NCBI GenBank assembly: GCA_938074205.1
Contig: CALJES010000012.1
Location: 192,080-256,079 of the forward strand
Reading direction: 5' to 3'
Length of the DNA: 64,000 nt
DNA from: an uncultured bacterium
Lineage (GTDB): Bacteria; Armatimonadota; UBA5829
Program-made: the position numbers and the translations under genes
The notes under the pieces: generated by a model
The model's input: the letters and a program-made list of their open reading frames with translations, nothing else
Told to the model about the DNA's origin: nothing
The model's database searches: none
Shown here: positions 47,251-55,908 of the stretch, piece by piece
Position numbering within the stretch: the stretch's first letter is position 1
Layout of the letters: each line of letters begins with the position of its first letter

Positions 47251-50200
47251 TTGGTTATGAGAAAAACCAATTTGATACTTCTGGCATTACTTGCCTCATT
47301 TGCAGCCGGCGCACAACTCGCCCATGCACAAGTCCCCGTAATTGCTATTGATCCTCCAGTGCCTTCTGTCGTCATGACAGACGGGCCTAATCCTGCACCG
47401 GATGTCGTTTTCAATGTTACGGTTGATAACGCCACCAATATAAATATTACGGCGGGCGACATTACCGTTCGTACGAGACCTCCCAATGTACGACAGGCGG
47501 CAAACCAACAGGCTGCTGCGGATCGGATAGTTGTTTTAAACGGCGATACACCGAACCCAATGGTTATCCTTGAGGGGGCCGGGCTCCATGGTGATGGTTA
47601 CATCTGGATCGAGATTGCAGGTTCGACGTGTTCAAATGATGAGGGGGATGCGAAAGACGCAGTGAGTCCAGAGCTTCGCGTCGACGCGACGCCTCCGGAT
47701 GTAAGGCTGACCGCGGCTGACGGCAATCCAACTGTGGCTAAGCCTTGTGATCCAACGACCGGTATGCTCACGTTCGTCGTCGAGTTCATCGACGAAAGTG
47801 AATCGGTTACCGGTTTCGACGCGGACGATGTTCTAATCAACGGCGTACCTGCTACTGATCCGGAGTGTTACGCCGTTTCTGCGCATTTTCCGTCTGGAGC
47901 AAGCTGTTTAGGTCCTGCCTGTGAAGTTTCGGGTTCGGGCAAAAGTTACTTAGTTGTGATCTATCCTCGCACCGATGGTCCGTTTACAATCCAGATCGCG
48001 GCGAAGGCAGCGACAGATGACGTTGGATGGGAGAGCACGGCTTCGAATGAAGTGACAGTTCCATACACAGATGCTCCACGGATCAATATACAGGCGCTCT
48101 CGCCTCCCAATACCAACAGCAAAACAATCAATTTTATGGTGGAGTTCAGTAAGCCTGTTCACGGCTTCGGACTTGGAGACGTAAGGGTAGATCCGCCCAC
48201 CACTCCGGGTGCGGCAGGCGGTACAAAAACGGTCGTGGTGACTGGTACCGGCGAACCTCTTTCTGAGGGACAGGTCTATTACGTCGGCGTAAGCGGATGC
48301 ACTTATTCCGGTTTTGTCAGATTGTTCGTAATGTGCAGTCAGGATAATCCCGATCAATCAGACTGGTGGTCTTCAGAGGATTCGTGTACAGAACCTCAGG
48401 TCAATTATGACGGTACCCCTCCGGACTCTCTAACCATTACCACTCCCCCCGACTTGCCCCAGCCTCCAGAGTATTCCGGCACGTATACAACTGCAAACAC
48501 CAAGATCGACATTGCGGGAACGGCACACGACGACGTAGGTATTTCTCGCGTTACTTGGAGCAACGACCGAGGGGGAAGCGGTCCGTGCGTTGGCACTTCA
48601 AACTGGTACGTGCGAGGCATCTATCTGAAGCCTGGGAGAAACTTGATAACCATTACTGCTGCTGACGCTGCCGGTAATACGCTAAGCTACTATTTGACCG
48701 TCAATTGCACAAACGAATACTCGTCTGAGACCGTTGATGCATACAGGGAAGACATCGAACGCGTTGGCGAGTACTCTTCGATTACGCTAGATGCAAGCGG
48801 TAATCCCAGAATTGCCTACTACAAGTACATCAATGATACTCATGGTGTTCTCAGATACGCCTACTACAATGGGCAGGGTTGGCACATCGAAGACGTAGAT
48901 GGTAACAGTCCCGGAAGTGAGGATGATAACGTTGGGCGATATACGTCCATAAAAGTCGATGCCCAAGGCAACCCTCACATAAGCTACTACGATGTTACCA
49001 ACGGCAATCTGATGTACGCTGTGTGGCGGGCTGGCACCTGGCAGATTACGACAGTCGACGGCTATATCAGCGCCACGGACGACGTCGGTCAATTTACATC
49101 GCTGGCACTTTATAATGGGCTGCCGCGCATCGCGTACTATGACGTGGCGAAGGGAGATCTGAAATACGCTAGCTATGATGGCACCAAGTGGACAAAGACT
49201 GTCGTCGACAGCACTGGCGATGTCGGCAGATTTGCTTCACTTGCGCTGGATCCGAGCACCGGGTTACCACGGATAGCCTACTATGACTCCACAAACAAGG
49301 ATTTGAAATATGCTGCTTACGACGGCAGCGCGTGGAACATATCAACAGTCGCATCGACTGGCGATGTGGGCCAGTACTGTTCGTTAGCGTTGGATTCTGA
49401 TACCGGATATCCGCGCATTGCTTACTACGACAACACGAATAAGGACCTCGTATATGCTGCCTGGGACGGCAGCGAATGGCGTTTCAGCACTGTCGATTCC
49501 GATGGTGACGTTGGGCGATATTGTTCGCTTGCTCTTTACAATGGGCTGCCCCGGATAGCCTACTACGATGGCGAGTCAAGCAGGAAAGATCTCAAGTACG
49601 CCGAAGGCAATGCTGCTGTTGACCCAACGTGGACGCTAACGGTCTTGGACGACGGCGTTGCAGAGGTGGGAGTCAGCACATACGACGTGGGTCAATATGC
49701 TTCTTTGGCTCTCGACTCCGCAGGCGGAGCGCACATAAGTTACTATGACGCAACCACGTCGCCTTTGCGCAATACGCTCAAATATATCTATCGAGCATCA
49801 GGGCCCACGTGCGTTGTAGAGCCTCTTAGCCCCAGCCCTACAAATATGTCACCTGTAAGCTTCAAAATTACTTTTTCCAATCCTGTCACAGGTTTTACTG
49901 TATCGGACATACTTGTGAGCGAAGGCACGGCAGGTGCGCTGACGCAGCTAGACAGCACCGGCTACCGGTTCGAGGTTTATCCCAATTCGATACCTGCTCC
50001 GGGTAACTCGTATGTGAATGTGAGAGTTAAAGTTCCGGCTGGTGCGGCTCGCTATGGGACGTTTGACAATCTGGAGTCTAACGAAGCACTTATTCAAGTC
50101 GACCGAATTCCGCCTACCGTTCAGGTGAATCAGGATTACGTGCAGCCAGATCCTTCCGGCGCAAATTCACCGAACGTAGTTTACTTTACTGCAGTGTTCA

Positions 50201-55908: not shown

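What the first reader, a model, noticed from the sequence alone, without database searches (positions are those of the whole stretch)
48430..55320. Homologous N- and C-terminal cap domains bracket the Ig array and recur in the downstream small protein
Segments at 48430..48700 and 55060..55320 encode ITTPPDLPQPPEYSGTYTTANTKIDIAGTAHDDVGISRVTWSNDRGGSGPCVGTSNWYVRGIYLKPGRNLITITAADAAGN and ITITRPTEEDSCIWNCSTFKVGGEASDNIGLAVVTWQTGSGGSGICSGTTNWTAVGIDIGSGDTVTVTAFDQAGN. These align with ATGGTATIDVDATDDVGVVRVEVKVTKPDGSS..AYDAAGK of the 55968..56432 product. A domain present twice in a giant protein and once in a free small lipoprotein suggests a homotypic docking/anchoring module, with the small protein as cell-envelope anchor or chaperone.
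Basis: seen in the sequence. Interest (0 to 1): 0.65.

Follow-up and report, generated by a model that had tools for sequence, protein, structure and literature searches.

The report
Ig domains, tail module, partner lipoprotein
A giant surface protein of an uncultured Armatimonadota bacterium carries two related, ordinary Ig-like domains; the second belongs to an undescribed C-terminal tail module shared by many exported proteins of this group, and that module is often followed by a gene for a small Ig-fold lipoprotein that may be its membrane partner.

Summary
Cap1 (48400-48729) and cap2 (55030-55335) are true paralogs: 41% identity, BLASTP E 6e-12, HHalign 98.7%, and both are conserved in all orthologs. 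The Ig domain of the small ORF is only a distant member of the same Big_7/Glucodextran_B-like class. Pairwise BLAST is not significant. A deep profile comparison gives 58% probability (E 1e-4), against 3% for the Big_12 array units.

The homotypic-docking idea is not supported:
- Cap-type Ig domains form tandem arrays of up to 23 copies in paralogs.
- The small protein's Ig type forms arrays of 10-37 units in unrelated proteins.
- One partner-bearing locus (L038) has no cap at all.
- The shared DDVGV motif is not conserved in the lipoprotein family.

The evidence supports a different picture. Cap2 plus a ~185-aa C-terminal domain (CTD) forms a cassette found on diverse Armatimonadota exoproteins. 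The CTD has no Pfam or NCBIfam family, and its confident AlphaFold model has no PDB match. The small ORF is a real lipoprotein gene (dN/dS 0.06-0.19). It lies directly downstream of CTD genes in the ortholog group and in 11 other loci, ten of them shown to have unrelated downstream genes, but it is absent after 18 other CTD genes. The likely reading is a C-terminal sorting or attachment cassette with an optional lipoprotein partner. The mechanism is inferred, not shown.

The parts
47111..47140 (+). Sigma-70-like promoter candidate (TTGACA-18-CATAAT, 11 of 12) upstream of the giant gene
   Evidence: This is a consensus match only, not evidence of function.
47257..55908 (+). Giant exoprotein gene (2883 aa from ATG 47257, AGGAG 10 nt upstream). 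Order of parts: Sec signal peptide, N-domain, 2 Big_12 units, cap1, beta-propeller, Big_12 array with an inserted ~85-aa segment and a P-domain, cap2, CTD.
48400..48729 (+). Cap1: Big_7/Glucodextran_B-like bacterial Ig domain (aa 382-491), a paralog of cap2
48736..49791 (+). Beta-propeller-like region of YYD repeats (weak BNR_4 and DUF7253 matches) between cap1 and the main array
   Evidence: The repeats are visible in the translation.
49798..55029 (+). Main Big_12 Ig array (15 units). It contains an unassigned ~85-aa insertion and a proprotein-convertase P-domain (about 51862-52176).
55030..55335 (+). Cap2: Big_7/Glucodextran_B-like Ig domain that directly precedes the CTD. It is the Ig half of the conserved C-terminal cassette.
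   Evidence: The AlphaFold model has pLDDT around 90 for this part. Foldseek returns generic BIg, PKD, FnIII, SiiE and glucodextranase matches.
55339..55905 (+). CTD: ~185-aa C-terminal domain ending ...CDLILPPPSNQ. It has no Pfam or NCBIfam family. The model is all-beta with two short helices and is rich in invariant Trp, Tyr and Gly. The domain is found almost only in Armatimonadota.
55952..55956 (+). GAGGA Shine-Dalgarno-like motif 11 nt before the small ORF's ATG. The gap after the giant gene is 59 nt, with no promoter-like or terminator-like site in it.
55968..56432 (+). Small lipoprotein gene (154 aa). Order of parts: signal peptide with lipobox Cys29, Gly linker, one Ig domain (56067-56372), conserved C-terminal PD.PPPPPPF tail.

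Best explanation
The locus is a two-gene unit of an Armatimonadota bacterium.

The first gene encodes a Sec-exported giant, adhesin-like surface protein built from bacterial Ig domains. Cap1 and cap2 are paralogous Ig domains of the Big_7/Glucodextran_B class. They are structural spacer modules, not special caps.

Cap2 together with the following ~185-residue C-terminal domain (CTD) forms a cassette. In this clade the cassette is attached to many different exported passengers: Big_12 adhesin arrays, a papain-type peptidase with a lectin domain, metallophosphatases, a VWA protein and a GHL15 hydrolase. A shared C-terminal cassette on unrelated passengers is the signature of a sorting or cell-surface attachment module, and that is the function I infer.

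The second gene encodes a small lipoprotein: lipid anchor, flexible Gly linker, one Ig domain and a polyproline tail. It is co-transcribed with, and recurrently linked to, cassette-bearing genes. I infer that it is a membrane-tethered partner of the cassette (anchor, receptor or assembly factor) for a subset of these proteins. It most likely contacts the CTD or the cap2-CTD unit rather than docking cap to cap.

Shown here: the homologies, the domain architecture, the cassette distribution, the gene linkage, purifying selection, and the absence of any known family or solved fold for the CTD.

Inferred: surface sorting or attachment by the cassette, and physical partnership with the lipoprotein.
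For: - Cap1/cap2 paralogy.
- Architecture.
- Cassette conservation: 13 paralog-level hits at 44-51% identity.
- Distribution: 77 genome loci, nearly all Armatimonadota, several per genome.
- Position of the cap: a cap-type Ig lies directly before the CTD in all close relatives except L038.
- Position of the CTD: it sits at the extreme C-terminus in close relatives.
- Passengers: Peptidase_C1+Lectin_like, Metallophos, VWA, GHL15, Big_12.
- Small ORF as a gene: dN/dS 0.06-0.19.
- Lipoprotein family features: lipobox, Gly run and Pro tail are conserved. 32 of 45 small proteins among the best 150 library hits have both the lipobox-CGG and the Pro tail.
- Linkage: the lipoprotein gene lies 5-450 nt downstream, on the same strand, of a CTD gene in the ortholog group and in L012, L014, L016, L017, L018, L021, L024, L025, L032, L038 and L095. 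Ten of these were tested and share no downstream genes; L095 also has different called neighbours.
- Specificity: all confident lipoprotein-profile hits in about 1 Mb of fetched loci are at that +1 position.
- Operon structure: 59-nt spacing, an SD-like motif, and no terminator between the two genes in the window.
Against: - No direct evidence of interaction or localisation exists.
- 18 close CTD genes in 15 loci have no lipoprotein gene in the downstream sequence searched (up to 1.5 kb; only 0.7-1.05 kb was available for L013, L027 and L039). The partner is therefore not a general requirement of the cassette.
- One distant lipoprotein-family member (P0133, L096/L097) follows an ORF without this CTD.
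- Pairwise divergence of CTD or cap against the lipoprotein is uncorrelated once orthologs are removed (r 0.26-0.34), so there is no co-evolution signal.
- The fetched loci were chosen by the CTD, which biases the forward association. The reverse test has n=2, with one positive.
- The CTD could equally be a glycan-binding (CBM-like) domain rather than a sorting signal.
Confidence: 0.45

Rival explanations
1. The cap domain is a homotypic docking module, and the small lipoprotein's cap-like Ig binds cap1 and/or cap2 to anchor or chaperone the giant protein.
For: All three domains fall in the same Ig subclass. The small ORF is the only other hit of the cap profile in the window (E 1e-3; HHalign 58%). 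The genes are adjacent, and the linkage recurs.
Against: - Pairwise similarity of the small ORF to the caps is not significant.
- Cap-type Ig domains occur as tandem arrays of up to 23 copies, which is ordinary spacer behaviour.
- The small protein's Ig type also forms long arrays in unrelated proteins.
- L038 keeps the lipoprotein without any cap.
- 18 cap-CTD genes lack the lipoprotein.
- The shared DDVGV motif is not conserved in the lipoprotein family.
Confidence: 0.1
2. There is no functional partnership. The small lipoprotein is an independent Ig-fold envelope protein. Its gene travels with the 3' cassette because cap-CTD plus the small gene are duplicated or recombined as one DNA block when new passengers are fused upstream.
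For: The cassette sits on many unrelated passengers, which implies frequent 3'-end shuffling. The lipoprotein is absent from more than half of close CTD genes. There is no co-evolution signal outside the orthologs. A distant family member follows a non-CTD gene.
Against: - Tight same-strand +1 placement is kept at 30-50% protein identity across at least 10 contexts that share no downstream genes. Neutral hitch-hiking would rarely survive that much divergence.
- The small gene is under purifying selection.
- The spacing is operon-like.
Confidence: 0.2
3. The CTD is a carbohydrate- or substrate-binding module rather than a sorting or anchor signal. In this case the lipoprotein is an unrelated accessory, or a periplasmic or outer-membrane export helper for large beta-rich cargo.
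Against: No significant structural or sequence match to any CBM. The strictly C-terminal position, the conserved extreme C-terminal CDLILPPP end, the restriction to one phylum and the multiple copies per genome are more typical of sorting domains. The domain also sits on non-enzymatic adhesins.
Confidence: 0.2

Closest known systems
Pfam Big_7 (PF17957) and Glucodextran_B (PF09136) bacterial Ig-like domains
   Same: These are the best Pfam matches of all three segments. The small ORF passes the Big_7 gathering score. Cap-type domains of paralogs pass the Glucodextran_B gathering score. The cap2 model superposes on glucodextranase domain B, SiiE BIg, PKD and FnIII domains.
   Different: The window's own caps score below both gathering thresholds (19-22 bits against 24.1 and 27). 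The caps carry a conserved 'SG.C.G...W' segment and extra Cys residues that are not part of those models.
Type IX secretion cargo C-terminus (an Ig-like domain followed by a beta-sandwich CTD, as in gingipain RgpB), with its outer-membrane partners. This comparison rests on my own knowledge.
   Same: An Ig-like domain plus a beta-rich CTD forms a cassette at the extreme C-terminus of many unrelated exported enzymes and adhesins within one phylum, with several copies per genome.
   Different: There is no sequence match to T9SS sorting-domain models in Pfam or NCBIfam. This CTD is about 185 aa, against about 80 aa for the T9SS domain, and has no PDB fold match. The organism is Armatimonadota, not Bacteroidota. 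No T9SS genes were seen in the window. The adjacent partner is a small Ig lipoprotein, which T9SS does not have.
Giant repetitive BIg adhesins (SiiE, MpIBP, LapA type). This comparison rests on my own knowledge.
   Same: A multi-thousand-residue rod of tandem bacterial Ig domains with interspersed ligand-binding-type domains (propeller, P-domain). Cap2 superposes on SiiE and MpIBP BIg domains.
   Different: Those adhesins use a C-terminal T1SS signal and RTX repeats, with an N-terminal retention module. This protein has an N-terminal Sec signal peptide, no RTX match, and a different C-terminal domain.
Cohesin-dockerin and other dedicated docking pairs
   Same: The idea of a module on a large scaffold that binds a module on a small anchored protein.
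   Different: No cohesin, dockerin or SLH match in any segment. The supposed docking domain behaves as a generic tandem-repeat Ig.

Membership tests
Pfam Big_7 (PF17957) bacterial Ig domain | Score at or above the curated gathering threshold (24.1 bits) | tested here: met
   The small ORF scores 25.2-26.1 bits, E 1.4e-5 to 2.6e-5.
Pfam Big_7 (PF17957) bacterial Ig domain | Score at or above the gathering threshold, for cap1 and cap2 | tested here: inconclusive
   Cap1 scores 22.0 bits and cap2 19.1 bits. Big_7 is the top hit for cap1 and the second hit for cap2 (after Glucodextran_B), but both scores are below 24.1.
Pfam Glucodextran_B (PF09136) | Score at or above the gathering threshold (27 bits) | tested here: inconclusive
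   The window's caps score 20.0 and 19.5 bits. Cap-type domains of paralogs L031 and L028 score 37.6 and 32.0 bits, so the cap type as a group belongs here.
Pfam Big_12 (PF19078), the array unit | The caps and the small-ORF Ig match the same profile as the array units | tested here: not met
   The array units match strongly (182 bits in 12 stretches by Pfam; 17 units with a self-built profile). HHalign of caps against Big_12 units gives probability 1%, and the small family against Big_12 units gives 3%.
Bacterial lipoprotein (SPase II substrate) | N-terminal signal peptide ending in a lipobox [LVI][ASTVI][GAS]C | tested here: met
   Orthologs and paralogs have LVAGC, LLAGC, LVSGC, FTAGC and similar, followed by GGG. 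The window copy reads LIGAGC, which is non-canonical at position -3, but its Cys aligns with the invariant Cys. Lipidation itself was not tested.
   Cap1 against cap2: E 6e-12 and HHalign 98.7%. Small ORF against the caps: BLASTP not significant; deep HHalign 57.8%, E 1e-4; hmmsearch E 1e-3 in the window.
T9SS C-terminal sorting domain, and other curated sorting domains (PEP-CTERM, LPXTG and similar) | A match to the curated models, or for the CTERM/LPXTG types a C-terminal hydrophobic helix with a basic tail | tested here: not met
   No Pfam or NCBIfam hit for residues 2694-2883. The protein ends ...CDLILPPPSNQ with no hydrophobic helix.
Cohesin-dockerin or SLH anchoring modules | A Pfam match in the caps, the CTD or the small ORF | tested here: not met
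Candidate new family: Armatimonadota cap-CTD cassette with a downstream Ig lipoprotein | The CTD sits at the extreme C-terminus, is preceded by a cap-type Ig, and is followed on the same strand by a lipobox-GGG-Ig-polyPro gene | tested here: met
   The window meets all three features. The same arrangement is seen in the orthologs and in 10 further loci; an eleventh, L038, has the CTD and the lipoprotein but no cap.

The most novel reading that the evidence does not exclude
The ~185-aa CTD, with its preceding Ig, is a previously undescribed, Armatimonadota-specific C-terminal sorting or attachment domain with a new fold. The Gly-linker/Ig/polyproline lipoprotein is its dedicated membrane receptor. 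One possible mechanism is that the polyproline tail binds the Trp/Tyr-rich surface of the CTD. Together they would form a new two-component system for tethering giant adhesins and exoenzymes to the cell envelope.
Probability: 0.25. Interest if true: 0.75.

Novelty: new variant of a known kind. Interest (0 to 1): 0.45.

Why it matters
The duplicated 'cap' Ig domains are ordinary and would not matter on their own.

Following them up exposed a conserved C-terminal cassette. It has no Pfam or NCBIfam family and no match among solved structures, and it is shared by adhesins, peptidases, phosphatases and hydrolases across a poorly studied phylum. It is frequently paired with a distinctive small lipoprotein.

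Phylum-specific C-terminal sorting domains, such as the T9SS CTD, PEP-CTERM and LPXTG, have each led to a secretion or anchoring machinery. A similar handle for Armatimonadota would help to predict their surface proteome and exoenzymes, and would give a concrete pair of proteins to test.

Tried and rejected
- **Exact-sequence look-up of the window's small protein.** It is not on record.
- **PDB sequence searches** of cap2+CTD and of the small protein. Nothing scored below E 0.28.
- **Metagenome scan with the diverse lipoprotein alignment A3.** The scan with the closer alignment A2 returned only 3 ortholog-level loci. The reverse association (lipoprotein to CTD) therefore rests on two look-ups of profile-found members. 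One was positive (L095). The other, a distant member, was negative (L096/L097).
- **First structure job (cap2+CTD, 14 sequences).** It gave a poor CTD (pLDDT 30-60). This was solved by a 39-sequence CTD-only alignment.
- **The afdb50 fold library** was unavailable.
- **Mirror-tree comparison** of CTD or cap against the lipoprotein. The high overall correlation (r about 0.9) is driven by orthologs. Outside them r is 0.26-0.34, which is inconclusive.
- **Complex prediction** (cap-lipoprotein or CTD-lipoprotein) cannot be run with these tools.
- **The upstream 684-aa ORF as part of the system.** Rejected. It is syntenic only within the ortholog group and has no family match.
- **An M6-type peptidase passenger in L024.** I guessed this from an HExxH motif, but Pfam did not confirm it, so I do not claim it.
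- **Literature searches** found nothing on such a domain or pair in Armatimonadota.
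Full report
**What is at the coordinates**

The region holds one very long ORF. Its likely start is ATG 47257, with AGGAG 10 nt upstream, and its stop is at 55906-55908, giving 2883 aa. A 154-aa ORF follows 59 nt later (ATG 55968, with GAGGA 11 nt upstream, stop at 56430-56432). No promoter-like or terminator-like site lies between the two genes. A strong sigma-70-like site lies at 47111-47140. The next gene is convergent, so the two ORFs look like one transcription unit.

Orthologous loci and the best genome match (89% identity over cap2+CTD) are from Armatimonadota MAGs.

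**Architecture of the giant protein**

Positions are in ATG numbering.

| Residues | Element |
|---|---|
| 1 to ~24 | Sec signal peptide |
| ~25-144 | N-domain of unknown family |
| 145-379 | Two Big_12 Ig units |
| 382-493 | Cap1 |
| ~494-845 | YYD-repeat beta-propeller (weak BNR_4 match) |
| 848-2591 | Fifteen Big_12 units |
| 2593-2693 | Cap2 |
| 2694-2883 | C-terminal domain (CTD), no Pfam or NCBIfam match |

The Big_12 stretch is interrupted by an unassigned ~85-aa insertion and by a proprotein-convertase P-domain (about 1536-1640). 'N- and C-terminal caps that bracket the array' is therefore only loosely accurate.

**Check of the observation**

- Cap1 and cap2 are clearly homologous. BLASTP gives 41% identity over 101 residues, E 6e-12. 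HHalign of the ortholog profiles gives 98.7%, E 3e-16.
- Both copies are conserved in every ortholog.
- The small ORF's Ig domain is not detectably similar to either cap by BLASTP. With shallow profiles it shares only the N-terminal 'D.PPt...A.DDVGv.rV' stretch.
- With deep profiles (85 cap-type domains, 15 lipoproteins) the whole domain aligns: 84 columns, 24% identity, probability 57.8%, E 1e-4. The Big_12 units give 3% against the small family and 1% against the caps.
- Scanning all six-frame ORFs of the window with the cap profile hits only cap1, cap2 and the small ORF, the last at E 1e-3.
- All three have Big_7, Glucodextran_B or Big_13 among their best Pfam matches, and Big_7 ranks first or second for each. 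Only the small ORF passes a gathering threshold.
- The cap2 model is a confident Ig sandwich that resembles SiiE/MpIBP BIg, PKD, FnIII and glucodextranase domain B.

Verdict: two true paralogs, plus a distant member of the same Ig subclass.

**Is the small ORF a gene?**

Yes.
- Seven homologs share 56-90% identity.
- dN/dS is 0.06-0.19 against five orthologs.
- The design is conserved: signal peptide, lipobox Cys, Gly run, one Ig domain and a C-terminal PD.PPPPPPF tail.
- An exhaustive profile search found 1021 hits. Among the best 150 are 45 small proteins, and 32 of them have both the lipobox-CGG and the Pro tail.

**What the caps are**

I searched with cap2+CTD. This returned paralog-level relatives (44-51% identity) in other Armatimonadota and 77 genome loci, nearly all from Armatimonadota and often several per genome. 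HMM scans of these loci show two things.

1. A cap-type Ig sits directly before the CTD in every close relative except L038.
2. In many paralogs the cap-type Ig is simply the repeat unit of a tandem array: 23 copies in L036, 6 in L019, L029, L037 and L039, 5 in L027, and 4 in L034.

The Ig type of the small protein behaves the same way. It forms arrays of 10-37 units in large proteins that almost never carry the CTD, and only a few of which carry cap-type domains. Neither domain therefore behaves as a dedicated docking module. Both are general structural Ig modules.

**The cassette and the CTD**

The Ig+CTD cassette is attached to unrelated passengers:
- Peptidase_C1 with a lectin-like domain (L031)
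- Metallophosphatases, four tandem genes (L028/L030)
- VWA (L032)
- GHL15 (L038, without a cap)
- Big_12 arrays (L021, L024, this window)

**Linkage of the lipoprotein**

Within the ortholog group the whole neighbourhood is syntenic, so adjacency there is uninformative. However, a lipoprotein homolog also lies directly downstream, on the same strand and 5-450 nt away, of a CTD gene in L012, L014, L016, L017, L018, L021, L024, L025, L032 and L038. Those loci share no downstream genes.

A lipoprotein found independently by the profile search (P0105) is again at +1 of a 3147-aa protein with cap and CTD, in yet another context (L095). All confident lipoprotein hits in about 1 Mb of fetched loci are at this position.

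There are limits to the association.
- 18 close CTD genes in 15 loci have no such gene in the downstream sequence searched, which was up to 1.5 kb but only 0.7-1.05 kb for L013, L027 and L039.
- A more distant family member (P0133) follows an ORF that lacks this CTD and ends in a FlgD_ig-like motif.
- Divergence of CTD or cap and of the lipoprotein is not correlated outside the orthologs.

**Interpretation**

The proposed mechanism, homotypic docking of a shared cap domain, is not supported.
- L038 keeps the partner without a cap.
- Many cap-CTD genes lack the partner.
- The shared DDVGV motif is not conserved in the lipoprotein family.
- Both Ig types are generic array modules.

The best-supported model is a C-terminal Ig+CTD sorting or attachment cassette with an optional lipoprotein partner that recognises the CTD or the cassette as a whole (confidence about 0.45).

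The rivals are:
- neutral co-travel of the small gene with a shuffled 3' cassette (0.2);
- a CBM-like CTD with an unrelated or export-helper lipoprotein (0.2);

**Comparison with known systems**

The domains themselves are members or near-members of known Ig families (Big_7, Glucodextran_B). In logic, the cassette resembles the Ig+CTD end of type IX secretion cargo. It fails every membership test for that or any other curated sorting domain, it is twice as long, it has no solved-structure match, and it occurs in a different phylum. Giant BIg adhesins of the SiiE/LapA type share the rod architecture but use T1SS/RTX signals that are absent here. Two full-text searches found no description of this domain or gene pair.

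**Verdict**

The finding as written describes an ordinary duplication of an Ig domain plus a distant relative in the next gene. Its mechanistic reading is mostly wrong. The follow-up reveals a moderately interesting, apparently undescribed C-terminal cassette and lipoprotein pairing in Armatimonadota, which merits multimer prediction and experimental tests.

Noticed in passing
window 42206-43713 (+): Two adjacent genes with the N-terminal methylation motif of type IV pilin-like proteins. One also carries DUF1559. They lie a few kb upstream of the giant gene.
   Followed up: no
window about 51376-51750 (giant protein aa ~1384-1498): An ~85-aa segment (…GDVIRWRNDSGGAFALEILTDAGE…GTYKFRRKV…) is inserted inside Big_12 unit 7 and has no Pfam match. 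A proprotein-convertase P-domain follows at aa 1536-1640.
   Followed up: partly
window 48736-49791: About eight 'G.Y.SLALD..G.PRIAYYD....DLKYA' repeats form a beta-propeller-like block between cap1 and the main array. Only weak BNR_4 and DUF7253 matches were found.
   Followed up: partly
window 44954-47008 (+): A 684-aa ORF directly upstream of the giant gene has no Pfam or NCBIfam match. It is syntenic in all orthologous loci but absent from paralog contexts.
   Followed up: partly
L042, L044, L046, L049, L051, L054, L056, L057, L060, L069, L072, L077 (Fimbriimonadales and other Armatimonadota MAGs): A conserved locus carries three genes that each contain a distant version of the CTD, at nearly fixed spacing (CTDs at about 1.4, 6.1 and 8.9 kb of each locus). 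In many of the distant hits the domain does not lie at the end of the stop-to-stop ORF.
   Followed up: no
L036:416-6612; also L013 and L027: L036 encodes 23 tandem cap-type Ig domains before a CTD. L013 and L027 contain runs of N inside tandem cap repeats, probably assembly gaps in repetitive DNA.
   Followed up: no
L096:3-1203, L097: A distant member of the small-lipoprotein family lies 22 nt after an ORF that lacks the Armatimonadota CTD. That ORF ends in a FlgD_ig/T9SS-CTD-like 'ILWNGRGE…GLYLLEI' motif. The lipoprotein family may therefore pair with more than one kind of C-terminal domain.
   Followed up: partly
window 55880-55905 and 56388-56429; alignments A1 and A3: Both proteins end in conserved proline-rich C-termini: the CTD in …C[DE]L[IV]LP[PA]P and the lipoprotein in …PD.PPPPPPF… The CTD has many invariant Trp and Tyr residues. 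Whether the polyproline tail binds the aromatic-rich CTD is an untested idea.
   Followed up: no
window 56449-60554: The downstream genes are an SDR (minus strand), a GlcNAc 2-epimerase-family protein and a DUF6785/DUF6784 membrane protein. They are syntenic in the orthologs only.
   Followed up: no
L014:2431-5387: An S8 peptidase/PA-domain gene is followed, after a 108-nt gap behind its stop codon, by a 318-codon open frame that contains only cap+CTD and has no evident signal peptide (only 216 aa were called as a gene, 4740-5390). This could be a frameshifted or split S8-cap-CTD gene.
   Followed up: no
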